64,000 nt of DNA from a virus: the IMG/VR virus record IMGVR_UViG_3300045988_178038, positions 1 to 64,000 of that record; one strand, written 5' to 3'. A model generated the notes under the pieces. The model was not told where the DNA came from. It worked only from the letters and a program-made list of their open reading frames with translations, and did not search any database. This document shows, piece by piece, positions 27,091-36,041 of the stretch. Positions within the stretch are counted from its first letter, which is position 1. Every line of letters begins with the position of its first letter. The position numbers and the translations under genes are program-made.

Positions 27091-27738
27091 ATGAGTAGTC
27101 CAAATCAAAGAATAGTTCAAATAGAGAAGCCGAAGTATGAGAAAAATTTTCTCCAAATTGGAGAGGACGAATGGACTGAAGCTTTTACGAGACTAAAACC
27201 TTCGGCTTTTGGCATCTATCTTTACTTAGCGAATAATGCTAATGGGTACAAGCTTGAATTGAGTCAGAAAGCTGTTGAAAATAAATTGGGAATAAAGAAA
27301 TCAACTTATCATGAAGCCATTGCGCAATTAGAAAAAGTAGGGTATCTTTACTCAATAAAAGGAAATCTATGGGGTTTTCGTACAAAGTCCGGAAATCCGG
27401 ACAAACCCAATCAAATAGTAAATGATGAAGTCCGGAAATCCGGACAAGTTTGTCCAGAAATCCAGACTATAAAGTCCAGAAATCCGGACTTAGAAGTCCG
27501 GAAATCCAATATACAAATAGATAATAAATATATAGATAATATAGATATTAGAACAAAAAAGGGGATACGGCTTCGCGCGGAAGAGGATACGCCCGCGGAT
27601 AGATTGAAAGCTATGGCCTCGCGCTATCCGCAGCTCGAAGAAAGAATTTTTCAAAAGATGGATGAGGATGGAATGTCTGTTGAAGAAACTGTAAAATGGG
27701 TGGCGGAAACATACAATTTTATTTTTAGCAGAAAATAA
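27091..27738 (+). CDS. putative replication initiator / replisome organizer with internal origin iterons
   Basis: N-terminal wHTH-like segment (LSQKAVENKLGIKKSTYHEAIAQLEKVGYL); five iterons inside the coding sequence, as in lambda O or SPP1 G38P-type initiators. Confidence 0.55.
   Translation: MSSPNQRIVQIEKPKYEKNFLQIGEDEWTEAFTRLKPSAFGIYLYLANNANGYKLELSQKAVENKLGIKKSTYHEAIAQLEKVGYLYSIKGNLWGFRTKSGNPDKPNQIVNDEVRKSGQVCPEIQTIKSRNPDLEVRKSNIQIDNKYIDNIDIRTKKGIRLRAEEDTPADRLKAMASRYPQLEERIFQKMDEDGMSVEETVKWVAETYNFIFSRK
27386..27510 (+). repeat. five iterons, consensus AGTCCGGAAATCCGGAC (candidate origin)
   Basis: Copies at 27386-27402, 27429-27445, 27451-27467, 27473-27489, 27495-27510; each is itself an inverted repeat GTCCGG-AAAT-CCGGAC; AT-rich ATAAATATATAGATAATATAGATATT follows. 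Confidence 0.75.
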
Positions 27739-27740
27739 AA

Positions 27741-27779
27741 AGAAAAGCCAGAGAGTTTATGCTCTCTGGCTTCTTTTAT
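27741..27779. terminator. bidirectional terminator between convergent genes
   Basis: GCCAGAGAG/CTCTCTGGC stem (27747-27755/27762-27770) flanked by an A-run and a T-run. Confidence 0.75.
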
Positions 27780-28147
27780 TCTGCTTCGCAAAATTCTTTT
27801 TGTTCAATCGCCATTGCCAGCCAATCTCTAAATTGGGCATAGCTCATGGCGCGCGCGACCTCGTTTTCTATTATGACCAATCCTAGCTGATGGTCGCGCG
27901 CGAATTCCTCTTTCAATACGTAGTTCTTCTTTGTGTACTCTTTTGCGTTTTCGTAATGGATATCAATTAGGAGAAGTAGCTGATAGGGTACATAGCTTGT
28001 GTCCAGAATTCCAAAGGAATAACCAGTCGGCGCCCCGTGAGCTGAGCGCAACTCCTTGAAGGTGTAGAACATTACATAATGAAAGCCCCATTCATCTAGG
28101 GCTTTTGCCACTAGGTTTTCGGTATATGTTTTGTGGTAACGAAGCAT
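27776..28147 (-). CDS. hypothetical protein (123 aa)
   Basis: Track ORF 27776..28207 shortened to the ATG at 28147 behind AAAGGAGG. Confidence 0.5.
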   Translation of the reverse strand: MLRYHKTYTENLVAKALDEWGFHYVMFYTFKELRSAHGAPTGYSFGILDTSYVPYQLLLLIDIHYENAKEYTKKNYVLKEEFARDHQLGLVIIENEVARAMSYAQFRDWLAMAIEQKEFCEAE

Positions 28148-28261
28148 GCGCGCCTCCTTTAGTAAGTTTTCTTCTGTTAGAAAGAGGGAGAAAATTTGAG
28201 GACTCAAAATTTTTGAGAGGAATACAAGAAAAACCTCTTATAACTGGAAATAAAAAAATCT

Positions 28262-28960
28262 GTTAGAGAAAAACGAATAAGAATATTTTGTAAGAAATAG
28301 GGCGTATAAGATAGTGGTATAGAAGTAAGGGGAGCATAGAAGAGGGAGGAAAATAAAATAGGAAATGGAAAAAGAATAAAAGAAAAAAGTAGAAGAAAAA
28401 TAAATAAGAGGGGAAAATAGAAAAAGAAAGAATGGAAATAAAAAAGAAAAAAGAGAAAAGAAAATATAGAAAAAGGAAAAATAATAGAGAGGAAGATAAG
28501 AAAAAGTAGAAGAAGAATTATATGGAAGAATGTAAATAATAGAATTAGAGAAAAAATATATAAGAGGAAGTAATAAAAGGGAAAATAAAAGAAGAAAAAG
28601 ATAGGGGATAAAGGGAAAAGGAAAAAATTAGAAGAAGAGTATAAATAGAAGGACGTAAAAGAAGAAAGACAAAAGAAGGGGACAAAAAAGAGAGGGGAAA
28701 AAGAAAAAAGAAAAACGAAGAGAATAGAGAAGAAAGAAAAGAAAAGGTATAATCAATAGAACTGATAAGAAGGGGAAAGTAAAATTGGAGAATAGAGGGA
28801 AGGAAGAGAAAAAATCGTAGAAAAAAAAGTAAACGAAAAAAATTTCAAAAAAAAAGGGAGAACAGAAAAAAATTCTAGAAAAAGGGCGTAGATAAGGAGA
28901 AATAGAGGGAAGGAAGAGAAAAGAGGGAGAAAGGAAAGGGATAAAAAGGAGAAAAAATAA
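28262..28960 (+). repeat. cytosine-depleted polypurine tract (about 0.7 kb) with degenerate internal repeats
   Basis: No C at all between 28336 and 28653 (318 nt); very few C or T elsewhere; 22-bp perfect direct repeat AATAGAGGGAAGGAAGAGAAAA at 28791 and 28901; AAAAAGTAGAAGAA-like units about 115-120 bp apart; no ORF of 60 aa or more on either strand. Confidence 0.9.
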
Positions 28961-28969: not shown

Positions 28970-29002
28970 GCTTAGAAGCAATGGCTTAGAAGCAACGGCT
29001 TA
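28970..29002 (+). repeat. 14-bp tandem repeat x2.4 (GCTTAGAAGCAAYG)
   Basis: GCTTAGAAGCAATG GCTTAGAAGCAACG GCTTA. Confidence 0.8.
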
Positions 29003-29143
29003 TATATAGAAGGGATGGCACAGTTCCCCACGTGGGAGGGGTAGAGTGTGTGTCCGGACGATGGCGATCAATGGTTGTGGCCATTGGCGGATTGAGATAG
29101 GTAGAGGTGTGCGGAAATAGATTTCTCGCGCAAATTTATTTCT

Positions 29144-29205
29144 TGTCAAAAATTCAAATTATTTCAAAATTATCTTCTGTCAAAGATTCAACCCATTTCA
29201 AATTT
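29144..29205 (+). repeat. 28-bp imperfect direct repeat pair
   Basis: TGTCAAAAATTCAAATTATTTCAAAATT (29144-29171) and TGTCAAAGATTCAACCCATTTCAAATTT (29178-29205). Confidence 0.7.
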
Positions 29206-29315
29206 TTGTTATTGCTTATATGATATCGCGCAGCAAAATTTGACATCGCGTTACATGACATCATAGAATAAGGAATAAGCCCCAGCTAATAAGCCAGGGC
29301 TTAGGGGTAGAAAGC

Positions 29316-29684
29316 TTAGGAAAGCTTATAACCCTTCTGAGTTCCCTTCTTCTCCGGAATCTTCATGTCAACCTTCTCAAGCGTTCCTGCCTCGACGAAG
29401 GGCTTCAGAAGAGAGGGAATAGACTGTGGCTTGACCGTGTCAGCAAGACCAGCTGCCTCGATAAGCATAGTAGCGGTCTGCGGCTCATTCGTCATAACAT
29501 CCATAATGGCGTTACGAATAGGCTCCTTCTCTGCGTCCTTTGTGGCACGCTTTTCAGCCGCCTTGGCGCGGTTCTTCTCATTTGCGGCATTCATTACTTC
29601 CAGCTCGTGTGCGGCGAATTCAACCAGTTCAGCGGGCATGTCTTCAGCGGTAGCGATAGTGTTCAGAAATTCTCTCTTAGTCAT
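29316..29684 (-). CDS. hypothetical protein (122 aa), paralog of 33120..33512
   Basis: RBS GAAAGAAGGA; shared architecture MT(K/T)REF.N.I...E....E......L..M...N......K...K..E.....I...... and C-terminal KGY.L; GC-richer than neighbours. Confidence 0.6.
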   Translation of the reverse strand: MTKREFLNTIATAEDMPAELVEFAAHELEVMNAANEKNRAKAAEKRATKDAEKEPIRNAIMDVMTNEPQTATMLIEAAGLADTVKPQSIPSLLKPFVEAGTLEKVDMKIPEKKGTQKGYKLS

Positions 29685-29830: not shown

Positions 29831-29859
29831 ATTATACTATATTTTCGTTGATTTTTCAA
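29831..29859 (-). promoter_or_regulatory. promoter (minus strand) TTGAAA-17-TATAAT
   Basis: Read on the minus strand: TTGAAA (29859-29854), 17 bp, TATAAT (29836-29831); leader of about 140 nt to ATG 29684. Confidence 0.5.
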
Positions 29860-29869
29860 AATTGCGCCG

Positions 29870-29884
29870 GTCACGTTACGTGAC
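29870..29884. promoter_or_regulatory. 15-bp perfect palindrome GTCACGTTACGTGAC
   Basis: Sits 10 bp upstream of the -35 of the 29831-29859 promoter; a related GTCACGT half-site lies at 29899-29905. Confidence 0.5.
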
Positions 29885-30012
29885 ATTTTGTGCGTGCTGT
29901 CACGTAAAATGACGTCTTTCTTTGTCAAATTTTCCAGCTTAACAGTTGCAAAAAATGCGTTTTATTTTTTAAGAGGAAATTTCCATTGATACCTCTATAA
30001 ATTTCAATATCC

Positions 30013-30105
30013 CAGCTTATCGTCTGAAATATTGAAGACCCAGCTTATATGAAATTTGACACAAACGCAGCTTATTAGCAAGGCGGCCGCGCAGACGCAG
30101 CTTAT
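30013..30105 (+). repeat. four phased copies of CAGCTTAT (27-30 bp spacing)
   Basis: Copies at 30013, 30041, 30068, 30098; a fifth at 29769; lies in a 0.5 kb ORF-free region. Confidence 0.7.
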
Positions 30106-30272
30106 TTCAAAATTTGACTTTTCATTCAAATTCGATAATAGTTATTATATGAAGCGATAGAGGCCGCGCGATGTCATATAATATAGAAAAACTCATGTAA
30201 TATCGCGCGGCAAATATAATGTAATGTGGAATTGGGTATCATGTAAAGTTGAAAATTTGACAAAAATTTGAA

Positions 30273-30291
30273 TTAGACGTGAAACGTCTAA
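30273..30291. promoter_or_regulatory. dyad element TTAGACG-N5-CGTCTAA
   Basis: N5 = TGAAA; leftmost copy, next to the terminator at 30292. Confidence 0.6.
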
Positions 30292-30317
30292 TAAAAAAAG
30301 AGTGATTAAATCACTCT
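30292..30317 (-). terminator. intrinsic terminator (minus strand)
   Basis: AGAGTGAT/ATCACTCT stem (30299-30306/30310-30317), U-run encoded by the A-run 30292-30298. Confidence 0.65.
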
Positions 30318-30323
30318 TTATCA

Positions 30324-30422
30324 TTATCCGAATCGGATAAAATTAGAATCTCCGCTTGCTTTCCAAGGGTGGTTGATACCCATGCGTTTGCACCAAAAAT
30401 AACACTTAATTCTTCTAATCAT
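30324..30422 (-). CDS. hypothetical micro-ORF (32 aa) in the smallest cassette (could instead be an sRNA)
   Basis: GGAG 7 nt before ATG 30422; MIRRIKCYFWCKRMGINHPW...; own promoter and terminator. Confidence 0.3.
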   Translation of the reverse strand: MIRRIKCYFWCKRMGINHPWKASGDSNFIRFG

Positions 30423-30482
30423 TTTTAATCTCCGTTTCATCAGTATATTCTTCTGGCGTGCGGTCTTTCATTTGGTATTTGT

Positions 30483-30511
30483 ATTATATCATAGTTTTTT
30501 CTTTTTGTCAA
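30483..30511 (-). promoter_or_regulatory. promoter (minus strand) TTGACA-17-TATAAT
   Basis: TGTCAA at 30506-30511 and ATTATA at 30483-30488 on the plus strand; TGn extended -10. Confidence 0.65.
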
Positions 30512-30520
30512 CTCTTTTTA

Positions 30521-30539
30521 TTAGACGAAGAACGTCTAA
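30521..30539. promoter_or_regulatory. dyad element TTAGACG-N5-CGTCTAA
   Basis: N5 = AAGAA; 9 bp upstream of the -35. Confidence 0.6.
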
Positions 30540-30540
30540 A

Positions 30541-30573
30541 AAGAAAATAAAAAGAGGACGCTTACACGTCCTC
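30541..30573 (-). terminator. intrinsic terminator (minus strand)
   Basis: GAGGACG/CGTCCTC stem (30554-30560/30567-30573), U-run from the A-rich 30541-30553. Confidence 0.7.
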
Positions 30574-30592
30574 TACTAAAAGGTATTTGTTT

Positions 30593-30808
30593 TCAAAGAG
30601 GTGATTTTTCATCTTCTTCCCCGAATATGTCTCTTAGGATAGGAAGATAGTAGTATCTGATAAAAGATTGAACGGAAAAGAGATGATCAGAAAGCTCTTG
30701 AATTTCTGTTGCCTCATCTTCTTCTAGGTTTTCTTTTGCTCGGATGGAATCTGCTGAAAGCTCTTCGATTTCATCTACCATATTTCTAAGTTTTTGAGTA
30801 AGATTCAT
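30593..30808 (-). CDS. hypothetical acidic protein (71 aa)
   Basis: RBS GAAAGGAAG; own promoter and terminator. Confidence 0.6.
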   Translation of the reverse strand: MNLTQKLRNMVDEIEELSADSIRAKENLEEDEATEIQELSDHLFSVQSFIRYYYLPILRDIFGEEDEKSPL

Positions 30809-30857
30809 TTCTATTACTTCCTTTCACTTTGGTTGTTTCTTTCAACTTTGTAACTAG

Positions 30858-30886
30858 ATTATACCATAAAAATTTTGATTTGTCAA
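30858..30886 (-). promoter_or_regulatory. promoter (minus strand) TTGACA-17-TGgTATAAT
   Basis: TGTCAA 30881-30886, ATTATA 30858-30863; conserved leader CTAGTTACAAAGTTGA. Confidence 0.7.
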
Positions 30887-30895
30887 GAACTTTTT

Positions 30896-30914
30896 TTAGA
30901 CGGTTTACGTCTAA
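30896..30914. promoter_or_regulatory. dyad element TTAGACG-N5-CGTCTAA
   Basis: N5 = GTTTA; 9 bp upstream of the -35. Confidence 0.6.
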
Positions 30915-30922
30915 AAATGCGT

Positions 30923-30949
30923 AAAAGAAAAGGACACATAATGTGTCCT
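30923..30949 (-). terminator. intrinsic terminator (minus strand)
   Basis: AGGACACAT/ATGTGTCCT stem (30931-30939/30941-30949), U-run from 30923-30930. Confidence 0.7.
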
Positions 30950-30964
30950 TTTTCTCTTTACATA

Positions 30965-31711
30965 TCACCGAACGACGAATTTGTTCTTTGTCTTGTAATA
31001 TGTCGCGCGCGCTCCTTCGACAATAATTTTTTCACCCGGCAAGTCAATGGTGAGCTCGCGTGTCACTTTACGTTCAATAGAACGCTTTGCCTGATAGTCT
31101 CCGTTCAAATCGGCGCCACGGTCGAGACAAGCAAATAAAATTTCGGCTTCGATTTCGCTATCAGAAAGCGCGGTATGATCTTCAGTAAATGACGCATCAG
31201 AACGGATGTAACGCGTCAATGCTTCGGCAGTTGTGGAATAATGCCCGCTTTCAGTGAAAGCATTATTTTCTTCACACCATGCGCGGAATGTATTATCAAT
31301 CATGAAATGATGGACAAAACCGCGGATATCAGAAATAGGAACGGTTTCAAAAGGATTTATGACTTTGAACCAATCGCAGTTGAAATTGAAAACTTTTTCA
31401 TCGAAAGCGGAATTGTAAGCAAACGCGCGTTCAACTTCATAGTTGCGGAAATCACGGAGCATTTGCTGTGTCACATAACCGAACTTTTCCATCCGGATGG
31501 TTCGCGCTCTCAAAGCACCGACATAAATAGAACGCTTGTTTGCATAGTATGCAGTATTGAAAAGCGGGAGATTGTGCCAGATTTGCTCAATGACAAATTC
31601 ACGCTTTACAAGACAGGCACGAGATTCCGTATCAAGAATTAGATAGCCGACATTATAACAATACGGCTTTTCAAGGCTTGTCGTTTCCGTGTCGAATACA
31701 CAAATTTTCAT
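30965..31711 (-). CDS. DEDDh-type 3-prime to 5-prime exonuclease (DnaQ / RNase T-like)
   Basis: Exo I VFDTETTS, Exo II AYNSAFDEKVF, Exo III HTALSDSEIE. Confidence 0.75.
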   Translation of the reverse strand: MKICVFDTETTSLEKPYCYNVGYLILDTESRACLVKREFVIEQIWHNLPLFNTAYYANKRSIYVGALRARTIRMEKFGYVTQQMLRDFRNYEVERAFAYNSAFDEKVFNFNCDWFKVINPFETVPISDIRGFVHHFMIDNTFRAWCEENNAFTESGHYSTTAEALTRYIRSDASFTEDHTALSDSEIEAEILFACLDRGADLNGDYQAKRSIERKVTRELTIDLPGEKIIVEGARATYYKTKNKFVVR

Positions 31712-31771
31712 TTTTTCAAAGTCCTTTCATATTTCATTGATGGGTCTTTCGTCCTCTATCAACGTAACCAT

Positions 31772-31800
31772 ATTATAGCATAGAAAAGGGATTTTGTCAA
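31772..31800 (-). promoter_or_regulatory. promoter (minus strand) TTGACA-17-TGcTATAAT
   Basis: TGTCAA 31795-31800, ATTATA 31772-31777. Confidence 0.65.
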
Positions 31801-31842
31801 GAACTTTTTTTGTCGTGTAAGACGACGCGTGGTAGTCGGTTT

Positions 31843-31861
31843 TTAGACGATGGACGTCTAA
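31843..31861. promoter_or_regulatory. dyad element TTAGACG-N5-CGTCTAA
   Basis: N5 = ATGGA; 42 bp upstream of the -35; an extra small hairpin GTCGT-GTAAG-ACGAC lies at 31812-31826. Confidence 0.6.
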
Positions 31862-31897
31862 AAAAAAGAAATAAGAAAGAGGACGCATTACACGTCC
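31862..31897 (-). terminator. intrinsic terminator (minus strand) with the stop codon in the loop
   Basis: GGACG/CGTCC stem (31881-31885/31893-31897), loop holds TAA of ORF 31888; A-rich 31862-31880 gives the U-tail. Confidence 0.6.
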
Positions 31898-32109
31898 CTT
31901 TCGAGTTCAATGTAATGTTCAAGATTAGGAATTTCAATATCAAGAATTTCGTCGCAATCCGTTACTTTATTGAGTTTTTGATAAACTTCATTATACATAT
32001 TTTTCCACAATTTTTCATCGTAACAGTCATGAAGGGTGGTAGGCGCGAATTCGTCATCAATTTCAATTTCTTTTTCTACGCGTCCGATATAACTCACTTT
32101 TACTTTCAT
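31888..32109 (-). CDS. hypothetical protein (73 aa), paralog of 35407..35628
   Basis: ATG 32109; MKVKVSYIGRVEKEIEIDDE versus MKVKIIYTATVEKEIEVNDV. Confidence 0.6.
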   Translation of the reverse strand: MKVKVSYIGRVEKEIEIDDEFAPTTLHDCYDEKLWKNMYNEVYQKLNKVTDCDEILDIEIPNLEHYIELERDV

Positions 32110-32156
32110 TTCAAATCCTTCTTTCATTTGGTTATTTTCTTCAACCTTGTAACTAG

Positions 32157-32185
32157 ATTATAACATAAGAATTTCAATTTGTCAA
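32157..32185 (-). promoter_or_regulatory. promoter (minus strand) TTGACA-17-TGtTATAAT
   Basis: TGTCAA 32180-32185, ATTATA 32157-32162; conserved leader. Confidence 0.7.
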
Positions 32186-32194
32186 GAACTTTTT

Positions 32195-32213
32195 TTAGAC
32201 GTTCTTCGTCTAA
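32195..32213. promoter_or_regulatory. dyad element TTAGACG-N5-CGTCTAA
   Basis: N5 = TTCTT; 9 bp upstream of the -35. Confidence 0.6.
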
Positions 32214-32221
32214 AGACGAAA

Positions 32222-32250
32222 GGAAAAGAGGGTGACGCTTTACGCGCCAC
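32222..32250 (-). terminator. intrinsic terminator (minus strand) with the stop codon in the loop
   Basis: GTGACGC/GCGCCAC stem (6 of 7 bp), loop TTTAC holds TAA of ORF 32240. Confidence 0.55.
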
Positions 32251-32623
32251 TTTCCTCCTTTTCCTTTTCGCGTTCCTCGCGCTTGCGCTTTGCCTCGGCG
32301 CGGTTCTTTTCGTCCCATGCGATTTTTTCGGCTTTCTTCTTTGCGGTTTCGGCTTTTTTTGCGCGTTTCGCTTCGGTTTCCTGCGCGTAGTTCTGCGCTT
32401 CCTCGTAACCGTCATAAGGAATATAACATTTATTCTCTTTGTCACGCTCGCCCTTCGGGATACTAAAAGCGATATTCAAATATCCCTCATCTTCACCACG
32501 CACCCACGGAATAGAGATTGTTCCGCTTTTGACCTGTAACACATCTTCGCCCTTACTTTCGAACAGTTCGCGCACGGCAGACATAAATTCCTCGCGGATT
32601 TCAGTTTCAATTTTACTTGCCAT
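32240..32623 (-). CDS. hypothetical protein with a lysine/glutamate-rich C-terminal tail (127 aa)
   Basis: RBS AAAGGAAG; own promoter and terminator. Confidence 0.6.
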   Translation of the reverse strand: MASKIETEIREEFMSAVRELFESKGEDVLQVKSGTISIPWVRGEDEGYLNIAFSIPKGERDKENKCYIPYDGYEEAQNYAQETEAKRAKKAETAKKKAEKIAWDEKNRAEAKRKREEREKEKEESGA

Positions 32624-32658
32624 AGTTTTTGACTTCCTTTCTTTTATTTGGTAACTAG

Positions 32659-32687
32659 ATTATACCATAATTTTTTCAAAAAGTCAA
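32659..32687 (-). promoter_or_regulatory. promoter (minus strand) TTGACT-17-TGgTATAAT
   Basis: AGTCAA 32682-32687, ATTATA 32659-32664. Confidence 0.65.
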
Positions 32688-32738
32688 GTATTTGAAGAAA
32701 AAAATTTTTGGCGCGTTAGATTGCATTCTCGAAGGACT

Positions 32739-32757
32739 TTAGACGTATAACGTCTAA
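32739..32757. promoter_or_regulatory. dyad element TTAGACG-N5-CGTCTAA
   Basis: N5 = TATAA; 51 bp upstream of the -35. Confidence 0.6.
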
Positions 32758-32787
32758 AAATTTCTAAAGGGAAAGGCGAACCTAACC

Positions 32788-32985
32788 CTATTTTTCCTTT
32801 TCATCAATAAAAATTTCTTCATCGAGAAATTCCAAGCGATAAATTTTTTCCTGGACAAGATAAGTTTTACAATGCGGACATTTGATAAAACACGAGTAAT
32901 AATAATTATCATCTACTACTTCTTCAGTGGACTTGTAACAATTCTGAAATTCATCAAAGCGATTCTGACAATTTGGACAATACAT
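32788..32985 (-). CDS. hypothetical Zn-ribbon protein (65 aa)
   Basis: ATG 32985 behind GAAGGGAG; CPNC ... CPHC. Confidence 0.55.
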   Translation of the reverse strand: MYCPNCQNRFDEFQNCYKSTEEVVDDNYYYSCFIKCPHCKTYLVQEKIYRLEFLDEEIFIDEKEK

Positions 32986-33014
32986 TTTAAAAGCTCCCTT
33001 CACTTGATATCTTT

Positions 33015-33043
33015 ATTATAGCAGAAACTTATGAAAAAGTCAA
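33015..33043 (-). promoter_or_regulatory. promoter (minus strand) TTGACT-17-TGcTATAAT
   Basis: AGTCAA 33038-33043, ATTATA 33015-33020. Confidence 0.65.
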
Positions 33044-33053
33044 GAAAAATTTT

Positions 33054-33072
33054 TTAGACGTTCTTCGTCTAA
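33054..33072. promoter_or_regulatory. dyad element TTAGACG-N5-CGTCTAA
   Basis: N5 = TTCTT (identical to the copy at 32195); 10 bp upstream of the -35. Confidence 0.6.
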
Positions 33073-33082
33073 ATTAGTTCAT

Positions 33083-33111
33083 AAAAAAGGACGTCACTTT
33101 ATGTGACGTCC
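33083..33111 (-). terminator. intrinsic terminator (minus strand)
   Basis: GGACGTCAC/GTGACGTCC stem (33089-33097/33103-33111), U-run from 33083-33088. Confidence 0.75.
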
Positions 33112-33119
33112 CGTTACGT

Positions 33120-33512
33120 TTACTCTGCGTCGCTCGGCTCGGTGTCGCTCGGTTCTGCGTTCGCGAGGGAATAGCCCTTTGCTTTTCCCTTGCCCTTAAT
33201 CTTGACTTCAACAGAAGTCACTTCACCGGACTTCTCAAGAATCCGGAGCAGAGAAGAACACTTCTGAATGTTCTTCAGTTCCGGCTTTGCGTCAAAGAGG
33301 TCAGACGCGGTGATGTGATGGTCAGCAGCGGCGAGGACTTCGCGCACGATGGGCAGAAGTGCTTCGTTTTCCTTCTGTGCCTTTGTCGGCTTAGAGGAGC
33401 GTTCGGCGTTCTTCTTGTCCATTGCGGACAGGAGCGCGACAGCCTTTTCAGAGATTTCAGCGGAAACGTTTTCCATGGACAGGATAGCATTGTAAAATTC
33501 ACGAGTAGTCAT
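33120..33512 (-). CDS. hypothetical protein (130 aa), paralog of 29316..29684
   Basis: RBS GAAAGGAG; GC-richer than neighbours; see the paralog note. Confidence 0.6.
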   Translation of the reverse strand: MTTREFYNAILSMENVSAEISEKAVALLSAMDKKNAERSSKPTKAQKENEALLPIVREVLAAADHHITASDLFDAKPELKNIQKCSSLLRILEKSGEVTSVEVKIKGKGKAKGYSLANAEPSDTEPSDAE

Positions 33513-33592
33513 AATAGGCTCCTTTCATTTTAGCGACGGTCGCCACCCTATTTTTTTATATTCAAGAGGTTTCCTCTCTTGATTACGCCTTT

Positions 33593-33621
33593 ATTATACC
33601 ATAGATTTTTGAATTTGTCAA
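33593..33621 (-). promoter_or_regulatory. promoter (minus strand) TTGACA-17-TGgTATAAT (proximal of a tandem pair)
   Basis: TGTCAA 33616-33621, ATTATA 33593-33598. Confidence 0.65.
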
Positions 33622-33725
33622 GAGGGTTTTGGTCTTTTTTTTCATCGAAGCCGGCATTTGACTAAACTTGGGACTATATATACCATTAGGCTCGCCCACA
33701 GCGTCTCGCCCTCTTGACATTATGA

Positions 33726-33754
33726 ATTATATCATAGTCCGCGCGAAAAGTCAA
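33726..33754 (-). promoter_or_regulatory. promoter (minus strand) TTGACT-17-TGaTATAAT (distal of a tandem pair)
   Basis: AGTCAA 33749-33754, ATTATA 33726-33731; about 100 nt upstream of the proximal promoter. Confidence 0.55.
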
Positions 33755-33805
33755 GAAGAAATTTTAGAAATTTTGTCATATAACGTGACTTCGCGCGAGA
33801 AAGAT

Positions 33806-33824
33806 TTAGACGAGGAACGTCTAA
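33806..33824. promoter_or_regulatory. dyad element TTAGACG-N5-CGTCTAA
   Basis: N5 = AGGAA; 51 bp upstream of the -35 at 33749-33754. Confidence 0.6.
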
Positions 33825-33830
33825 TTCAAG

Positions 33831-33861
33831 AGAGAAAGAAAAGAGGCGCTTTATGCGCCTC
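33831..33861 (-). terminator. intrinsic terminator (minus strand)
   Basis: GAGGCGC/GCGCCTC stem (33843-33849/33855-33861), U-run from 33831-33842. Confidence 0.7.
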
Positions 33862-33884
33862 AAAAAGATATATTACATTTTATT

Positions 33885-34157
33885 TTACTTTTCTTTGTTG
33901 AGAATGTCAAAACATTTGTTTTCATCGACTCCAATGAAAGTTACTTTACAAGAAGTAGAATAGAATTTCCCACTTCTAAAGCTTGCTTCCCATTTTGCTA
34001 CATATTTGAGACCATTGTTATCGTTTCGCCATTCTCCCATTACCGTGCTTGTGATATATTTTCTTGCTACTTTGTCTTTGACGTGGTTTTTCGCCATTAC
34101 CATAGCTTGCTGAAGGTTGGTAAAATAATATCCTCTTACGCGATAAAACGTAGTCAT
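33885..34157 (-). CDS. hypothetical protein (90 aa)
   Basis: ATG 34157 behind AAAGGAGAA; track ORF shortened. Confidence 0.55.
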   Translation of the reverse strand: MTTFYRVRGYYFTNLQQAMVMAKNHVKDKVARKYITSTVMGEWRNDNNGLKYVAKWEASFRSGKFYSTSCKVTFIGVDENKCFDILNKEK

Positions 34158-34232
34158 TAGAAATTCTCCTTTTTGTGATAAGTCACAACCTATTTTTATT
34201 TCGTTGAGTTCCTGTCTCAACTTTGTAACTAG

Positions 34233-34261
34233 ATTATAACATAAAAGTTTTGATTTGTCAA
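34233..34261 (-). promoter_or_regulatory. promoter (minus strand) TTGACA-17-TGtTATAAT
   Basis: TGTCAA 34256-34261, ATTATA 34233-34238; conserved leader. Confidence 0.7.
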
Positions 34262-34280
34262 TAATTTTTCGAAAAATTTT

Positions 34281-34299
34281 TTAGACGGTCTACGTCTAA
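34281..34299. promoter_or_regulatory. dyad element TTAGACG-N5-CGTCTAA
   Basis: N5 = GTCTA; 19 bp upstream of the -35. Confidence 0.6.
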
Positions 34300-34300
34300 T

Positions 34301-34331
34301 AGGAAAGGGAATACGCTTATCGCGTATTCCC
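34301..34331 (-). terminator. terminator-like hairpin (minus strand) with the stop codon in the loop
   Basis: 10-bp stem GGGAATACGC/GCGTATTCCC (34307-34316/34322-34331); loop TTATC holds TAA of ORF 34317; weak U-tail. Confidence 0.5.
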
Positions 34332-34670
34332 GCAAATAATTCTTTTCATTATCTGTTCAATAATACTGTGGCTGTTCGGGATACAAAAAGGCAGTTTTAT
34401 ATTCAGTCTTTGTGCCTCATTGAGAAGGTCTGCGCGAATGTCATCATATCCCGCAATGCTACTCAAAAGACACGTTCTTGCAATTTCTGCGTCGTGGTCT
34501 GCTTTTTTCCTGTCTGGTGTATTTTCTGGATAGAGAATGGCAGAGAAGATTGTTGCATAGGTGTCAAAAACTCGCATTTCAAGTGTAAAAGTGCTTTCAT
34601 GTAAACGTTCAATTCGATTGTTGATCACGGGATTGGTAGTCGGCTGAATTTTCTTTTTCTTTTTGAACAT
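34317..34670 (-). CDS. hypothetical protein (117 aa)
   Basis: RBS GAAAGGAAG; own promoter and terminator. Confidence 0.6.
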   Translation of the reverse strand: MFKKKKKIQPTTNPVINNRIERLHESTFTLEMRVFDTYATIFSAILYPENTPDRKKADHDAEIARTCLLSSIAGYDDIRADLLNEAQRLNIKLPFCIPNSHSIIEQIMKRIICGNTR

Positions 34671-34704
34671 TTTAGAAGCTTCCTTTCTTTTGTTTGGTAA
34701 TTGT

Positions 34705-34733
34705 ATTATATCATAAGAATTTCAATTCGTCAA
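34705..34733 (-). promoter_or_regulatory. promoter (minus strand) TTGACG-17-TGaTATAAT
   Basis: CGTCAA 34728-34733, ATTATA 34705-34710. Confidence 0.6.
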
Positions 34734-34742
34734 TAGTTTTCT

Positions 34743-34761
34743 TTAGACGGTTCACGTCTAA
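34743..34761. promoter_or_regulatory. dyad element TTAGACG-N5-CGTCTAA
   Basis: N5 = GTTCA; 9 bp upstream of the -35. Confidence 0.6.
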
Positions 34762-34764
34762 GAC

Positions 34765-34800
34765 AAAAAAACAGAAAAAGGTGACGCTTTATGCGTCACC
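34765..34800 (-). terminator. intrinsic terminator (minus strand) with the stop codon in the loop
   Basis: GGTGACGC/GCGTCACC stem (34780-34787/34793-34800), loop TTTAT holds TAA of ORF 34789, U-run from 34765-34779. Confidence 0.75.
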
Positions 34801-35247
34801 AATCGAATGAAGAAAATCAAAAATCTCTGTCGCGTCATATGCCATCATTCCTGCGTGCGTCCATTCTTCACGATTTGGCTTTTCATCATCAAAAAGAAAA
34901 CCGCCGCGCAATATGCCAACTTCGCTTTTTGGTGTGCCGTAATGAACAATACAAATTTCATCGAATCGAACGCTTTTCAAATGGCGCGAAAGCCATTCCA
35001 TTTTTGCGCGGCGAACTTCTTCAAGAAAATTTTCGTCACGGTCTTTACTTCCCCATGATACAATGCGGATTTTCCATCCCTTGCGCTGAACCGCGTTCAA
35101 ACGTCGCGCGAGTCTTGAAAGATTGAGAAGTGCGCGTGCGTCTCTGTATGGGCTTGCATCATGCGCGCGAATTTTCGGAAGCCAATTTTTAATGCCGTAA
35201 AAGTCAACGATTGTTCCATCCATATCTAAACTAATAATTTTTTCCAT
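34789..35247 (-). CDS. HAD-superfamily 5-prime(3-prime)-deoxyribonucleotidase-like phosphatase
   Basis: N-terminal ISLDMDGTIVDF (DxDG nucleophile motif), FLFDD near the C-terminus; size typical of NT5C-like phage enzymes. Confidence 0.55.
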   Translation of the reverse strand: MEKIISLDMDGTIVDFYGIKNWLPKIRAHDASPYRDARALLNLSRLARRLNAVQRKGWKIRIVSWGSKDRDENFLEEVRRAKMEWLSRHLKSVRFDEICIVHYGTPKSEVGILRGGFLFDDEKPNREEWTHAGMMAYDATEIFDFLHSIGDA

Positions 35248-35276
35248 TTTAAAAGCTCCTTTCTTTTTGTATCTAA

Positions 35277-35305
35277 ATTATATCATAGTTTTTCTAATTT
35301 GTCAA
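35277..35305 (-). promoter_or_regulatory. promoter (minus strand) TTGACA-17-TGaTATAAT
   Basis: TGTCAA 35300-35305, ATTATA 35277-35282. Confidence 0.65.
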
Positions 35306-35355
35306 GAAGAATTTTAGAAAATTTTGACATATAAGATGAAATCTGTGTGAAATAT

Positions 35356-35374
35356 TTAGACGATGGACGTCTAA
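35356..35374. promoter_or_regulatory. dyad element TTAGACG-N5-CGTCTAA
   Basis: N5 = ATGGA (identical to the copy at 31843); 50 bp upstream of the -35. Confidence 0.6.
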
Positions 35375-35398
35375 CAAAAAAAGGGGAAATTCCCCCCC
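35375..35398 (-). terminator. intrinsic terminator (minus strand)
   Basis: GGGGA/TCCCC stem (35383-35387/35391-35395), U-run from 35375-35382. Confidence 0.6.
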
Positions 35399-35406
35399 CT
35401 CTTGTA

Positions 35407-35628
35407 TTACCATATTGCAATACAAATATATGAACCTTTTTCCTTGTCAAAGGCAAAAATACGGTCCATGTCTTTAAAACCTTCTTGTTTTTCTGCAATG
35501 TCGGCCATTTTGTCACAAAAAAGGTCGGAAATTTCTTCTGGGCAATCTTCCCGTTTTACAATTTCATAAACATCATTGACTTCAATTTCCTTTTCAACTG
35601 TAGCGGTATAAATAATTTTTACTTTCAA
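35407..35628 (-). CDS. hypothetical protein (73 aa), paralog of 31888..32109
   Basis: RBS GAAAGGAAA; shared N-terminus MKVK..Y...VEKEIE. Confidence 0.6.
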   Translation of the reverse strand: MKVKIIYTATVEKEIEVNDVYEIVKREDCPEEISDLFCDKMADIAEKQEGFKDMDRIFAFDKEKGSYICIAIW

Positions 35629-35676
35629 TTTATATTTTCCTTTCTTTTCGTTGAGTTATTTCAACTTTGTAATTAG

Positions 35677-35705
35677 ATTATATCATAAGAATTTCAATTT
35701 GTCAA
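35677..35705 (-). promoter_or_regulatory. promoter (minus strand) TTGACA-17-TGaTATAAT
   Basis: TGTCAA 35700-35705, ATTATA 35677-35682; conserved leader. Confidence 0.7.
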
Positions 35706-35714
35706 GAACTTTTT

Positions 35715-35733
35715 TTAGACGAACCACGTCTAA
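35715..35733. promoter_or_regulatory. dyad element TTAGACG-N5-CGTCTAA
   Basis: N5 = AACCA; 9 bp upstream of the -35. Confidence 0.6.
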
Positions 35734-35742
35734 TTTTCCACT

Positions 35743-35899
35743 AGAAGAAACGCGCGGTGATGGTTGCCCGCGCATTTCAATGTAAACAAAACAAAAACAC
35801 AAAAGAAAGGAGGCACTATTTTCTCCAACCATCAGAAGGAAACAGTATCAACAAAGAAGATTTTTCCTAACCCACCCACAACCATCTTCTTTTGATTAC
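35743..35899 (-). ncRNA. candidate sRNA of about 155 nt (promoter-to-terminator unit without a convincing ORF)
   Basis: Starts after the TATAAT at 35906-35911; hairpins AAGAAGAT/ATCTTCTT and GGAG/CTCC; ends at GCGCGG/CCGCGC stem (35752-35757/35768-35773) plus U-run; only RBS-less ORFs of 17-50 aa. Confidence 0.35.
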
Positions 35900-35905
35900 G
35901 TAATT

Positions 35906-35934
35906 ATTATAGCACGTTTTATGCGGTTTGTCAA
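35906..35934 (-). promoter_or_regulatory. promoter (minus strand) TTGACA-17-TGcTATAAT
   Basis: TGTCAA 35929-35934, ATTATA 35906-35911. Confidence 0.65.
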
Positions 35935-36003
35935 GAGGAATTTCAAAATTTCTGGAAATTATTTTTGTAAAATTTTCTGAAATTCTTTCCTCTAACTATC
36001 TAT

Positions 36004-36031
36004 ATTATACTATATTTTCTGAAAAAGTCAA
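36004..36031 (-). promoter_or_regulatory. promoter (minus strand) TTGACT-16-TATAAT (tandem, upstream of 35906-35934)
   Basis: AGTCAA 36026-36031, ATTATA 36004-36009. Confidence 0.55.
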
Positions 36032-36041
36032 GAAAAAACTT

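What the first reader, a model, noticed from the sequence alone, without database searches (positions are those of the whole stretch)
28262..28960. A 0.7 kb cytosine-depleted polypurine tract with degenerate periodic repeats, in the replication/control region
The plus strand is almost pure A/G here. There is no C at all for 318 nt (28336-28653), only about 16 C across 28321-28980, and few T. No ORF of 60 aa or more exists on either strand.

Internal order is visible. There is a perfect 22-bp direct repeat 110 bp apart (28791 and 28901), and AAAAAGTAGAAGAA-like units recur every 115-120 bp.

The tract lies between the iteron-bearing initiator gene and the early cassette array. I can think of four non-exclusive readings:
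- a strand-asymmetric replication or DNA-unwinding / H-DNA element;
- a protein-binding array;
- if transcribed rightward, an RNA packed with GGA/GGAG/AGGAGG motifs that could titrate CsrA-like proteins or anti-SD sequences;
- if transcribed leftward, a G-less pyrimidine RNA.

None of these is established.
Basis: seen in the sequence. Interest (0 to 1): 0.7.

Follow-up and report, generated by a model that had tools for sequence, protein, structure and literature searches.

The report
Conserved purine-only spacer in gut phages
A 0.7 kb non-coding stretch whose top strand is almost pure A/G is real and is kept by every known relative of this human-gut phage, but it is not the replication origin and what it does is still unproven; my best guess is that it limits leftward early transcription.

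Summary
Window 28262-28960 is 86% purine with 15 C. There is a 318-nt C-free run, where the longest anywhere else in the 64 kb window is 73 nt. It is also the only stretch above 80% purine.

It is not an assembly artefact. About 20 related human-gut phage contigs carry a tract of 320-880 nt and 81-89% purine at the same place and polarity.

The replication reading is weakened. A lambda-type origin (five palindromic iterons plus an AT-rich segment) lies inside the initiator gene at 27387-27565. Relatives swap that cassette and keep the tract.

- No excess of mirror repeats, so H-DNA gains no support.
- GGA, GGAG and AGGAGG motifs are at or below composition expectation, so the SD/CsrA sponge reading has no support.

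The tract lies where two early transcription arms converge. It sits downstream of 19 near-consensus promoters and one terminator, and upstream of a 123-aa clade-specific gene.

Read leftward, the RNA is G-less (C/G 12.7) and structure-free. It has no start codons across the C-free core and very few elsewhere.

My best guess (about 0.3) is a Rho-type insulator or leader. Rivals are a polar DNA barrier, a protein-binding array, a purine-rich RNA, and neutral expansion. Transcript data are needed.

The parts
27091..27738 (+). Initiator-like gene (215 aa) with an HTH_36 domain and weak matches to O-like and DnaD-like replication initiators.
   Evidence: Pfam HTH_36 at 2.8e-7. PHROGs 270, 678, 186 and 345 at 4.5e-6 to 2e-3.
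27387..27565 (+). Lambda-type origin inside the initiator gene. It has five palindromic iterons of the form GTCCGGAAATCCGGAC at 27387, 27430, 27452, 27474 and 27496, then an AT-rich, C-poor segment at 27509-27565.
   Evidence: Nine matches were found against 0.94 expected, and no shuffle reached 9.
27743..27774 (.). Bidirectional intrinsic terminator shared by the rightward arm and the 123-aa gene.
   Evidence: Stems of 12-13 bp with T-rich tails on both strands.
27776..28147 (-). 123-aa gene (ATG at 28147, preceded by AAGGAGG). It is found only in this phage group and always lies directly downstream of the tract. It may have a small Vsr/DUF2726-like nuclease fold.
   Evidence: There are 16 homologues at 76% identity or more and only 4 remote hits; one of those remote hits matches DUF2726 at 8.7e-5. 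The AF2 model has pLDDT 73 with no significant fold match.
28153..28272 (.). Ultra-conserved non-coding block. It contains CTGTTAGA twice (28174 and 28260) and the palindrome CTCAAAATTTTTGAG.
   Evidence: Only 3 of 121 columns vary among 10 phages (2.5%). That is lower than codon positions 1+2 (10.3%, p = 0.004). The RNA folds are not significant.
28233..28295 (.). Deeply conserved core at the left edge of the tract: CTCTTATAAC..GAAATAAAAAAATCTGTTA..N..AAGAATATTTTTGTAAG. It is also present in the most distant relatives.
   Evidence: The core was used as the metagenome search pattern and returned 12 true loci.
28290..28960 (+). The purine tract proper. The plus strand is A 60%, G 27%, T 11%, C 2%.
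   Evidence: It is the least stable duplex of the window. Either single strand is essentially free of secondary structure.
28353..28512 (+). Hypervariable, indel-rich A/G filler on the left side of the tract.
   Evidence: 57% of columns vary and 60% carry gaps.
28513..28872 (+). Moderately conserved centre of the tract, with islands that contain T and C (TTAGAAGAAG, GGGCGTAAAT / GGACGTAAAA, ATCGTAGAAAAA, AAAATTCTAGAAAAA).
   Evidence: 26.8% of columns vary, against 40.9% at codon position 3 (p = 4e-4).
28791..28922 (+). Perfect 22-bp direct repeat AATAGAGGGAAGGAAGAGAAAA at 28791-28812 and 28901-28922. It is part of a unit whose copy number varies between relatives.
28873..28960 (+). Hypervariable filler at the right end of the tract. 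Relatives carry insertions of up to about 200 nt here.
   Evidence: 68% of columns vary.
28970..29002 (+). 14-nt direct repeats GCTTAGAAGCAAYG, 2.4 copies here and 3.4 copies in one relative.
28993..29095 (.). Conserved GC-rich non-coding block with two short inverted repeats (CCCCACGTGGG and CAATGG..CCATTG). No significant RNA structure and no Rfam match.
   Evidence: 11% of columns vary over 28993-29072.
29131..29202 (+). AT-rich tandem repeats of 17/34 nt (AAATTCAAATTATTTCA). Copy number varies between relatives.
29236..29269 (+). An AAATTTGACA motif plus a half-operator-like CGTTACATGACAT. In this window it scores as TTGACA-18-TAGAAT, but the -10 hexamer is not conserved.
29276..29303 (-). 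Intrinsic terminator that ends the last unit of the leftward early array.
   Evidence: 12-bp stem with tail TTCCTTATTC.
29316..29684 (-). 122-aa early gene, the last promoter-gene-terminator unit of the array. Its promoter is TTGAAA-17-TATAAT at 29859-29831.
29831..38833 (-). Leftward early array: 19 near-consensus sigma-A-type promoters driving small genes.

Best explanation
**What it is.** The tract is a real, clade-specific, non-coding spacer with strongly asymmetric strands. It lies where two early transcription arms converge.

**How I think it works.** Its pyrimidine-rich strand is the sense strand of the leftward early array and of the 123-aa gene immediately downstream. I think it most likely acts on leftward transcription. 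Any RNA polymerase that reads through the last early terminator (29303-29276) would make several hundred nucleotides of RNA that is about U 60%, C 27%, A 11%, G 2%.

That RNA has three properties:
- It can hardly be translated. Its 318-nt C-free core has no AUG, GUG or UUG at all, the rest has very few, and GGAGG can hardly occur on a strand that is about 2% G.
- It cannot fold.
- It has a C-to-G ratio of about 13.

These are the properties of a Rho-loading (rut-type) region, or more generally of an attenuating leader.

**What it would achieve.** It would insulate two things from the 19 strong early promoters, or meter their read-through. One is the 123-aa gene, which has no recognisable sigma-A promoter and sits behind an ultra-conserved 120-bp control block. 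The other is the convergent replication module.

**Shown:** composition, polarity, lack of structure, lack of ORFs and near-absence of start codons, promoter and terminator layout, and conservation of the arrangement.

**Inferred:** that the tract is transcribed leftward at all, that Rho or another factor acts on it, and that this controls the 123-aa gene.
For: 1. **Layout.** There are 19 promoters within one mismatch of TTGACA-N16/17-TATAAT on the minus strand between 29859 and 38833. A minus-strand terminator follows at 29303-29276. No conserved sigma-A promoter lies on either strand between 28150 and 29276. The 123-aa gene comes directly after the tract.

2. **Properties of the leftward RNA.**
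   - Composition is T 404, C 178, A 75, G 14, giving C/G 12.7. There are 24 YC dinucleotides per 100 nt. The highest 78-nt C/G ratio on that strand is 24, against a median of 1.23.
   - Minimum free energy is 0 to -6 kcal/mol per 300 nt, against a window mean of -63 +/- 16.
   - Stop-free frames run to 163 codons, yet the only start-bearing ORFs of 40 aa or more on that strand are two TTG-started ones of 46 and 42 aa.

3. **C is avoided more than T.** C on the plus strand (G on the RNA) falls to 2% against 18% genome-wide. T falls only to 12% against 29%. Plus-strand G is not depleted at all: 26% against 22%. So the conserved property is 'no G on the early-sense strand', not low GC content.

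4. **Composition is kept while sequence and length drift.** Tracts are 320-880 nt and 81-89% purine in 14 phages. They are unalignable in the most distant relatives, whose neighbouring protein is 76-79% identical. This suits an element read by composition, as rut sites are.

5. **Linkage.** The tract always travels with the 123-aa gene and the early arm, not with the initiator and iteron cassette, which is swapped in L006, L009, L023 and L026.
Against: - No transcript data exist. Leftward transcription into the tract requires read-through of a reasonable intrinsic terminator.
- The host is unknown, so I cannot say whether it has Rho or uses it much. Some Firmicutes lack Rho; this point rests on my own knowledge.
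- The RNA is U-rich (60%) rather than C-rich. It is also about ten times longer than characterised rut sites.
- The conserved T- and C-containing islands in 28513-28872 are not explained by a purely compositional signal. Nor is the 110-117 nt and 13.7 nt periodicity of pyrimidine positions.
- Among the ten close relatives, the tract as a whole changes at the synonymous rate. Transitions occur in 31.5% of columns against 33.6% at codon position 3. Transversions occur in 10.8% against 13.0%. Selection on composition is therefore not demonstrable at that timescale.
- Enterococcus phage VRE9_2 has the same overall layout and manages without such a tract.
Confidence: 0.3

Rival explanations
1. DNA-level element: a strand-asymmetric, easily melted, structure-free zone next to the origin. 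It could serve as an accessory unwinding or helicase-loading zone, an R-loop zone, or a polar barrier. As a barrier it would stall the rightward fork or rightward transcription, because the purine strand is the lagging-strand template for a fork leaving the origin at 27.4-27.6 kb.
For: - It is the least stable duplex of the window at 100, 300 and 700 bp scales. At 300 bp it scores -1.093 kcal/mol per step against a mean of -1.302 (sd 0.067), and the next best region scores -1.163.
- Both single strands are structure-free.
- The origin's own AT-rich segment (27509-27565) has the same polarity and is also C-poor.
- In lambda, the A+T-rich part of the origin has 'almost all purines in one strand', and a specific strand is captured on opening (PMC5043065; PMC4081077).
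- One-strand G-free 'ATC' sequences are described as base-unpairing regions (abstract of PMC2148460).
- (GAA)n.(TTC)n tracts are reported to impede transcription (abstract of PMC1851639).
Against: - The origin is complete without the tract. It has its own AT-rich segment and is about 730 bp away, beyond a terminator and a gene.
- The initiator and iterons are replaced in relatives that keep the tract.
- G on the purine strand is not depleted, so low stability is not the conserved property.
- The tract lies in a convergent transcription zone. By my own reasoning from the twin-domain model, that should favour positive supercoiling, not negative.
- There is no mirror-repeat excess: the longest arm is 9, against 10.4 in shuffles.
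- Length varies 2.7-fold.
Confidence: 0.2
2. Protein-binding scaffold. The conserved T- and C-containing islands would be sites for a phage or host DNA-binding protein, possibly the neighbouring 123-aa protein. The A/G filler would act as a spacer of tolerated length.
For: - Motifs are enriched over composition: TAGA 19 against 7.8 expected, TAGAAG 6 against 1.3, CGTA 4 against 0.29, and GGGCGTA 2 against 0.01.
- There are ten TAGAAG copies in 28320-29012, all on the plus strand.
- The central tract is more conserved than synonymous sites.
- Pyrimidine positions show periods of about 112 nt and 13.7 nt.
- The flanks are rich in other repeated motifs.
- The tract is strictly linked to a clade-restricted small protein.
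Against: - GGGCGTA spacing is irregular (80-353 nt) and the motif is absent in the three most distant relatives.
- Pyrimidine-majority columns are not more conserved than A-majority columns: A 72% invariant, T 63%, C 39%.
- No DNA-binding domain was found in the 123-aa protein.
- This reading does not explain why the spacer has to be purine-only.
Confidence: 0.15
3. No function of its own. The tract would be a self-perpetuating low-complexity expansion, produced by slippage and unit duplication of purine-rich seeds in a tolerated intergenic gap.
For: - Taken as a whole, the tract changes at the synonymous rate.
- Its ends vary faster than codon position 3 (61% against 41% of columns) and are full of indels.
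- Length ranges from 320 to 880 nt.
- Insertions in relatives look like duplicated units.
- A phage with the same layout lacks the tract.
Against: - It is present in every one of about 20 related contigs, with no natural deletion found.
- The central 360 nt is conserved above the synonymous rate (p = 4e-4).
- The tract remains 83-89% purine in lineages where it can no longer be aligned.
- Phage genomes are tightly packed. Here the tract is framed by the two most conserved non-coding blocks of the region.
Confidence: 0.15
4. A rightward purine-rich non-coding RNA. It would start at the conserved core on the left edge (CTGTTA-N15-18-AATATT/TATATT, preceded by an A-tract). It would act as an RNA sponge or as an R-loop former.
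For: - The purine run starts within about 10 nt of a -10-like element that is conserved in all relatives, including the distant ones.
- An A-rich stretch lies upstream of the -35-like hexamer.
- A weak hairpin followed by a U-rich stretch lies at about 29110-29150.
Against: - The -35-like hexamer matches only 3 of 6 positions, and the site fails the promoter scan.
- SD-like and GGA motifs are not enriched.
- There is no structure and no Rfam family.
- Such an RNA would run head-on into the early array.
Confidence: 0.1

Closest known systems
A+T-rich, strand-asymmetric segment of the phage lambda origin (ori-lambda)
   Same: It is non-coding in function and A+T-rich, with almost all purines in one strand (PMC5043065). 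It lies to the right of palindromic iterons inside the initiator gene. This phage has the same iteron-in-gene arrangement, and its purine-rich strand has the same polarity as the initiator gene.
   Different: - The lambda segment is about 40 bp (my own knowledge) and abuts the iterons.
- Here that role is already filled by 27509-27565.
- The tract is 10-20 times longer and about 730 bp away, beyond a terminator and a gene.
- It is retained when the initiator and iterons are exchanged.
Rho utilisation (rut) regions of Rho-dependent terminators, for example lambda tR1
   Same: The RNA is untranslated, unstructured, C-over-G-skewed and pyrimidine-rich, and it lies downstream of strong early promoters. 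It appears to be read by composition rather than by a strict motif.
   Different: - It is about ten times longer than characterised rut sites (my own knowledge).
- It is U-rich rather than C-rich.
- An intrinsic terminator lies upstream of it.
- Rho dependence, and even the host, are unknown.
Untranslated repeat regions and injection stop signal of the phage T5 terminal repeat
   Same: Both are large untranslated regions, more conserved than the neighbouring small early ORFs, at the inner edge of a block of early genes that makes up about 8% of the genome (bioRxiv 10.1101/866236). Here the early array spans 29.3-38.8 kb, about 9.5 kb of roughly 119 kb.
   Different: - The T5 region is built of direct repeats, inverted repeats, palindromes and paired DnaA boxes.
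- This tract has none of these, and no DnaA box lies within 28-30.4 kb.
- The genome termini are unknown here.
Expanded homopurine.homopyrimidine repeats such as (GAA)n.(TTC)n, and SATB1-type 'ATC' base-unpairing regions
   Same: One strand is purine-only, or equivalently one strand lacks G. These sequences are known to affect transcription and to unpair easily (abstracts of PMC1851639 and PMC2148460).
   Different: - It is not a simple repeat.
- It is interrupted by T every 8 nt or so. The longest pure purine run is 38 nt.
- It has no mirror symmetry.
- The setting is a bacteriophage.

Membership tests
Lambda-type origin A+T-rich unwinding segment | A+T-rich, with purines concentrated on one strand | tested here: met
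   72-78% A+T and 86% purine. Lowest predicted duplex stability in the window.
Lambda-type origin A+T-rich unwinding segment | Directly adjoins the initiator's iterons | tested here: not met
   The iterons are at 27387-27511 with their own AT-rich segment at 27509-27565. The tract starts at about 28290, beyond a terminator and a gene.
Lambda-type origin A+T-rich unwinding segment | Belongs to the same replication cassette as the initiator and iterons | tested here: not met
   L006 and L023 carry different iterons (CTGACTTTTAAAAGTCAG). L006, L009 and L026 have other initiator genes. All of them keep the tract.
Lambda-type origin A+T-rich unwinding segment | Opened by the initiator under negative supercoiling | not testable with these tools
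   Needs KMnO4 or P1 nuclease probing.
Rho-dependent terminator / rut region | At least 70-80 nt of C-rich, G-poor RNA | tested here: met
   Leftward RNA has C 178 and G 14 over 671 nt (C/G 12.7) and 24 YC per 100 nt. However, U is 60%.
Rho-dependent terminator / rut region | RNA free of secondary structure | tested here: met
   Minimum free energy is 0 to -6 kcal/mol per 300 nt, against -63 +/- 16 elsewhere on that strand.
Rho-dependent terminator / rut region | Not translated | tested here: met
   No ORF of 60 aa or more. The minus strand of the 318-nt C-free core has no start codon, and the rest of the tract gives only two TTG-started ORFs of 46 and 42 aa. The 243-aa 'protein' called in L023 is a Phe/Leu/Ser/Pro-rich artefact.
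Rho-dependent terminator / rut region | Lies within a transcript of that strand | tested here: inconclusive
   There are 19 strong promoters upstream on that strand, but an intrinsic terminator at 29303-29276 intervenes. No RNA data are available.
Rho-dependent terminator / rut region | Termination depends on Rho | not testable with these tools
   The host is unknown. Needs bicyclomycin treatment, a rho mutant, or in-vitro assays.
H-DNA (intramolecular triplex) element | Uninterrupted homopurine.homopyrimidine run of about 15 bp or more | tested here: met
   Pure purine runs of 38, 32 and 25 nt here, and up to 79 nt in L024.
H-DNA (intramolecular triplex) element | Mirror-repeat symmetry | tested here: not met
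   The longest perfect mirror arm is 9, against a shuffle mean of 10.4. No arm reaches 10, against 1.5 expected.
CsrA-titrating or anti-SD sponge RNA | GGA / AGGAGG motifs enriched beyond what composition predicts | tested here: not met
   GGA 30 against 28.5, GGAG 7 against 7.4, GGAGG 1 against 1.9, AGGAGG 0 against 1.2.
CsrA-titrating or anti-SD sponge RNA | Motifs presented in hairpin loops | tested here: not met
   The plus-strand RNA has essentially no structure: -2 to -6 kcal/mol per 300 nt.
T5-type injection stop region | Large untranslated region at the inner edge of the first-entering early block, in a terminal repeat | tested here: inconclusive
   The layout and the 8% proportion resemble T5. 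The termini and any terminal repeat cannot be determined from assembled contigs.
T5-type injection stop region | Paired DnaA boxes with nested inverted repeats and palindromes | tested here: not met
   No TTATCCACA match, even allowing one mismatch, between 24.3 and 32.0 kb. Inverted repeats occur only in the flanks.
Tandem-repeat or iteron array | Head-to-tail copies of a definable unit | tested here: not met
   Tandem Repeats Finder gives only degenerate arrays with 58-78% matches. No autocorrelation lag is significant. There is one true 22-bp duplicate.

The most novel reading that the evidence does not exclude
The tract would be a barrier encoded by composition rather than by motifs. It would mark the inner boundary of a first-entering early segment of about 9.5 kb, roughly 8% of the genome. 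That would make it a Gram-positive, gut-phage counterpart of the T5 first-step-transfer stop, or a polar stop for polymerases, built from purine.pyrimidine DNA instead of DnaA boxes and palindromes. The linked 123-aa Vsr/DUF2726-like protein would act on it.
Probability: 0.07. Interest if true: 0.85.

Novelty: new variant of a known kind. Interest (0 to 1): 0.5.

Why it matters
If the tract works as I propose, it would show that a virulent gut phage separates its expression phases with a long element read by composition. The element would be an RNA that cannot be translated or folded, rather than a hairpin terminator or a protein-binding site.

More generally, it is a clean natural case of a strand-asymmetric sequence several hundred base pairs long that is kept across a phage clade. 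That makes it a useful test object for Rho loading, R-loop formation, or polar fork and polymerase stalling in bacteria.

There are practical consequences too:
- The tract breaks short-read assemblies; 6 of 12 metagenome contigs end in it.
- It induces false gene calls, such as a 243-aa Phe/Leu/Ser/Pro-rich 'protein'.

Annotators of gut viromes should know about both.

The value is limited for now. The host is unknown and no expression data exist.

Tried and rejected
- **DNA similarity to cultured phages:** no match by megablast or blastn.
- **Assembly artefact:** rejected. Independent assemblies agree.
- **Hidden coding under recoded stops:** the distant relative phAss-1 uses an alternative genetic code (PMC10607447). 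Even with TAG or TGA recoded, the plus strand stays closed, with 63 codons or fewer open. The minus-strand open frames are what a strand poor in A and G would give by composition, and almost none has a start codon.
- **SD/CsrA sponge:** rejected on motif counts.
- **H-DNA:** no mirror symmetry.
- **DnaA boxes:** none nearby.
- **Known RNA family or structured RNA in the tract or its flanks:** none. The only Rfam match is a sub-threshold hit on the terminator hairpin. Fold z-scores run from -1.6 to +0.2.
- **Tract as the DUE of the origin:** disfavoured once the iterons and AT-rich segment were found inside the initiator gene and the cassette swap was seen.
- **Function of the 123-aa neighbour:**
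  - Pfam gave nothing and PHROGs only a weak homing-endonuclease match.
  - The PDB sequence search was empty.
  - The AF2 model (pLDDT 73) had no Foldseek hit with E <= 0.001.
  - The exhaustive HMM search gave only 4 remote hits, one with a sub-threshold DUF2726 match.
  - This is a lead, not an assignment.
- **Phage-specific promoter motif shared between the left flank and other intergenic regions:** none found by 9-mer sharing.
- **Similar tract in phages with a related layout:** absent in Enterococcus phage VRE9_2 at the analogous junction and in the last 46 kb of phAss-1.
- **Literature searches for polypurine or purine-rich tracts in phage genomes:** no description of such an element.
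- **Selection against pyrimidines among close relatives:** not detectable.
Full report
**1. The observation**

The sequence is as described.
- Window 28262-28960 has A 418, G 183, T 83 and C 15, which is 86% purine.
- The C-free run 28336-28653 is 318 nt. The next longest in the 64 kb window (76 nt) is also inside the tract; the longest outside it is 73 nt.
- With 200-nt windows, 28238-29023 is the only region above 80% purine. The window mean is 0.53 with sd 0.066.
- No ORF of 60 aa or more exists on either strand.
- The minus strand has stop-free frames of up to 163 codons. That is what a strand poor in A and G would give. Start codons all need G, so its 318-nt C-free core has none and the rest gives only two TTG-started ORFs of 46 and 42 aa.
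- A gene caller fell for such a frame in a relative. It predicted a 243-aa 'protein' rich in Phe, Leu, Ser and Pro.

The internal order is partly confirmed.
- The perfect 22-bp repeat 110 bp apart exceeds all 500 dinucleotide-preserving shuffles.
- Three AAAAA[G/T]TAGAAGAA units are spaced 117 and 124 nt apart.
- Pyrimidine positions show power at 110-117 nt and at 13.7 nt.
- There is no significant gapless autocorrelation.
- There is no clean tandem array.

**2. It is real and clade-wide**

The phage has no DNA match among 50,697 deposited phage genomes. Its portal protein is only 23-30% identical to those of phAss-1, large Bacillus siphophages and Enterococcus phages.

Searches with the flanking genes, with tract 22-mers and with the conserved left-edge core recovered about 20 distinct related contigs. 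They come from IMG/VR, Logan and ENA human-gut assemblies.
- Every one that reaches this position has a tract in the same place and polarity.
- Tracts are 320-880 nt long and 81-89% purine.
- Separately deposited contigs are 99.9-100% identical across it.
- Six of 12 metagenome contigs end inside it. The tract is hard to assemble, and the filler lengths should be checked with long reads.

**3. Surroundings**

Left of the tract:
- Plus-strand genes end at 27738 with a 215-aa protein that resembles O-like and DnaD-like initiators and carries an HTH_36 domain.
- Inside that gene are five palindromic iterons (GTCCGGAAATCCGGAC, mostly 22 nt apart, 27387-27511), followed by an AT-rich, C-poor segment (27509-27565). 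This is the classic lambda arrangement.
- A bidirectional terminator follows at 27743-27774.
- On the minus strand comes a 123-aa gene (27776-28147, with AAGGAGG before the ATG).

Right of the tract:
- 14-nt direct repeats, a conserved GC-rich block and AT-rich 17/34-nt repeats of variable copy number.
- A minus-strand terminator at 29303-29276.
- A leftward array of small genes driven by 19 promoters within one mismatch of TTGACA-N16/17-TATAAT, spanning 29859-38833.

The rightward arm from about 16.3 kb also uses such promoters. The tract therefore sits where two early arms converge. No conserved sigma-A-type promoter lies on either strand between 28150 and 29276.

**4. How it evolves**

I compared ten close relatives against a baseline from the two flanking genes. 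In those genes, 40.9% of third-codon-position columns vary and 10.3% of first- and second-position columns vary.

| Region | Variable columns | Comparison |
|---|---|---|
| Block 28153-28272 | 2.5% | Below coding positions 1+2 (p = 0.004) |
| Block 28993-29072 | 11% | Similar to positions 1+2 |
| Central tract 28513-28872 | 26.8% | Below position 3 (p = 4e-4) |
| Two ends of the tract | 61% | Above position 3; riddled with indels |

Taken whole, the tract has transition and transversion frequencies indistinguishable from third codon positions. I therefore cannot show selection against pyrimidines at this timescale.

The argument for maintained composition rests on the distant relatives. Their neighbouring protein is 76-79% identical. 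Their tracts no longer align, yet they are still 83-89% purine.

The tract travels with the 123-aa gene, whose family is confined to this clade. It does not travel with the origin cassette. L006 and L023 have different iterons, and L006, L009 and L026 have different initiator genes.

**5. Physical properties**

- The tract is the least stable duplex of the window at every scale tried.
- As a single strand, in either orientation, it is essentially unable to fold. Minimum free energy is 0 to -6 kcal/mol per 300 nt, against -63 to -71 +/- 15 elsewhere.
- C on the plus strand is depleted about 8-fold and T about 2.4-fold. G is not depleted at all.
- What is conserved is therefore 'no G on the minus strand', not merely low GC content.

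**6.

- **Replication or unwinding.** The low stability is real and the polarity matches the origin's own AT-rich segment. Lambda offers a precedent for a purine-asymmetric unwinding segment (PMC5043065). However, the origin is complete without the tract, it is 730 bp away behind a gene, and it is exchanged independently of the tract. The H-DNA version gains no support, because mirror arms are no longer than in shuffles.
- **Protein-binding array.** This is compatible with the conserved islands and with enrichment of TAGA, TAGAAG, CGTA and GGGCGTA. Spacing is irregular, and the GGGCGTA motif is missing in the distant relatives.
- **SD/CsrA sponge.** Not supported. The motifs occur at or below composition expectation, and AGGAGG does not occur at all.
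- **Leftward G-less RNA.** This fits the layout best.

**7. Best explanation (confidence about 0.3)**

Transcription that escapes the last early terminator would produce a long RNA that is close to untranslatable, cannot fold, and is C-over-G-skewed and pyrimidine-rich. It would lie in front of a gene that has no promoter of the early type and is preceded by an ultra-conserved control block. These are the textbook properties of a Rho-loading region or attenuating leader.

A signal read by composition would also tolerate the observed drift in sequence and length.

The steps not shown are:
- that the tract is transcribed leftward;
- that the unknown host has Rho and uses it;
- that this gates the 123-aa gene or protects the convergent replication module.

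Points against are the U-richness, the extreme length, the conserved islands, and a layout-related Enterococcus phage that lacks any such tract.

The rivals are listed separately with their tests: a DNA-level polar barrier or accessory unwinding zone, a protein scaffold, neutral expansion, and a rightward purine RNA.

**8. Comparison with known systems**

The tract fails membership tests as follows:
- Lambda-type origin segment: fails on adjacency and cassette linkage.
- H-DNA element: fails on mirror symmetry.
- CsrA or SD sponge: fails on motif enrichment.
- T5 injection-stop region: no DnaA boxes, and termini are unknown.
- Tandem array: no definable repeating unit.

It meets the sequence-level features of a rut region. 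The functional features cannot be tested here.

I found no description of such an element in phage literature searches. I classify it as a new variant of a known kind, namely strand-asymmetric non-coding control DNA or RNA, with its mechanism unresolved.

**9. The neighbouring protein**

The 123-aa protein has an alpha-beta-beta-beta-alpha-beta core in a moderate-confidence model (pLDDT 73). It has no significant PDB fold match. One remote homologue gives a sub-threshold DUF2726 match and a weaker REase_MTES_1575 match. A small nuclease-like fold is a lead worth testing against tract DNA, nothing more.

Noticed in passing
window 27387-27565: A textbook lambda-type origin inside the initiator gene. 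It has five palindromic GTCCGGAAATCCGGAC iterons, mostly 22 nt apart, followed by an AT-rich, C-poor segment. Relatives L006 and L023 carry a different cassette with CTGACTTTTAAAAGTCAG iterons.
   Followed up: yes
window 28153-28272: A 120-bp non-coding block just left of the finding. It is more conserved than the first and second codon positions of the neighbouring genes (3 of 121 columns vary). It contains CTGTTAGA twice and a CTCAAAATTTTTGAG palindrome. It has no significant RNA fold, and its function is unknown.
   Followed up: partly
window 29831-38833, minus strand: Nineteen promoters within one mismatch of TTGACA-N16/17-TATAAT drive small genes with interspersed terminators. This dense early 'host-takeover-like' array spans about 9.5 kb, roughly 8% of a genome of about 119 kb. 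It includes an NT5C-type 5'-nucleotidase (34789-35247).
   Followed up: partly
window 29700-30300: A second non-coding stretch of about 0.6-0.9 kb. It has CAGCTTAT about six times, AAATTTGACA four to five times, and operator-like palindromes such as GTCACGTTACGTGAC (29870-29884). Similar motifs recur at 33773 and 37615.
   Followed up: partly
window 2308-2902: A full-length ROOL RNA (Rfam RF03087, 282 bits against a gathering score of 99) lies next to a tRNA cluster.
   Followed up: no
window 170-2140: A cluster of tRNA genes. Gly, Lys, Ile and Leu were called by both tools. Met(cat) at 2067-2140 was called by ARAGORN only. An 83-nt tRNA-like hit at 170-252 was called by Rfam only.
   Followed up: no
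window 42297-42532 and 43243-43437: Two group I introns (106 and 65 bits) lie between short ORFs just upstream of the portal gene. They probably split a late gene, possibly the large terminase. None of the flanking ORFs has a Pfam match.
   Followed up: partly
window 39047-39112: Five tandem copies of a 13-nt unit (CTGAAATTTAAAA) lie just upstream of the rightward promoter at 39147. That promoter heads the late arm, which begins with a sigma-factor-like gene at 39197-40525.
   Followed up: no
L023 5117-5848 (Logan ERR2145022_619): The public gene call of a 243-aa protein on the pyrimidine strand of the tract is a compositional artefact; the predicted protein is dominated by Phe, Leu, Ser and Pro.
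   Followed up: yes
L035-L038, L040, L041; also L003, L004, L005, L016: Contig ends cluster here. Six of 12 metagenome contigs stop inside the tract. Several IMG/VR contigs break at the initiator's iterons or within about 3 kb of the tract. The cause is probably repeats and low complexity, but a coverage step at a terminal-repeat boundary is not excluded.
   Followed up: partly
L029 (Enterococcus phage VRE9_2, PP680568.1) 19640-20200: A cultured phage has the same overall layout: a sigma-factor gene, an early array with homologues of two early genes (phrog_30233 and phrog_20187), and a convergent arm with a phosphoesterase gene and tRNAs. At the equivalent junction it has an ordinary AT-rich gap of about 0.45 kb and no purine tract.
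   Followed up: yes
L031 (MDTC01206101.1) 4742-4764: The 23-nt search pattern also hit by chance inside a bacterial ORF of an AT-rich organism, possibly a pseudouridine-synthase gene. This is a false positive of the metagenome scan.
   Followed up: yes
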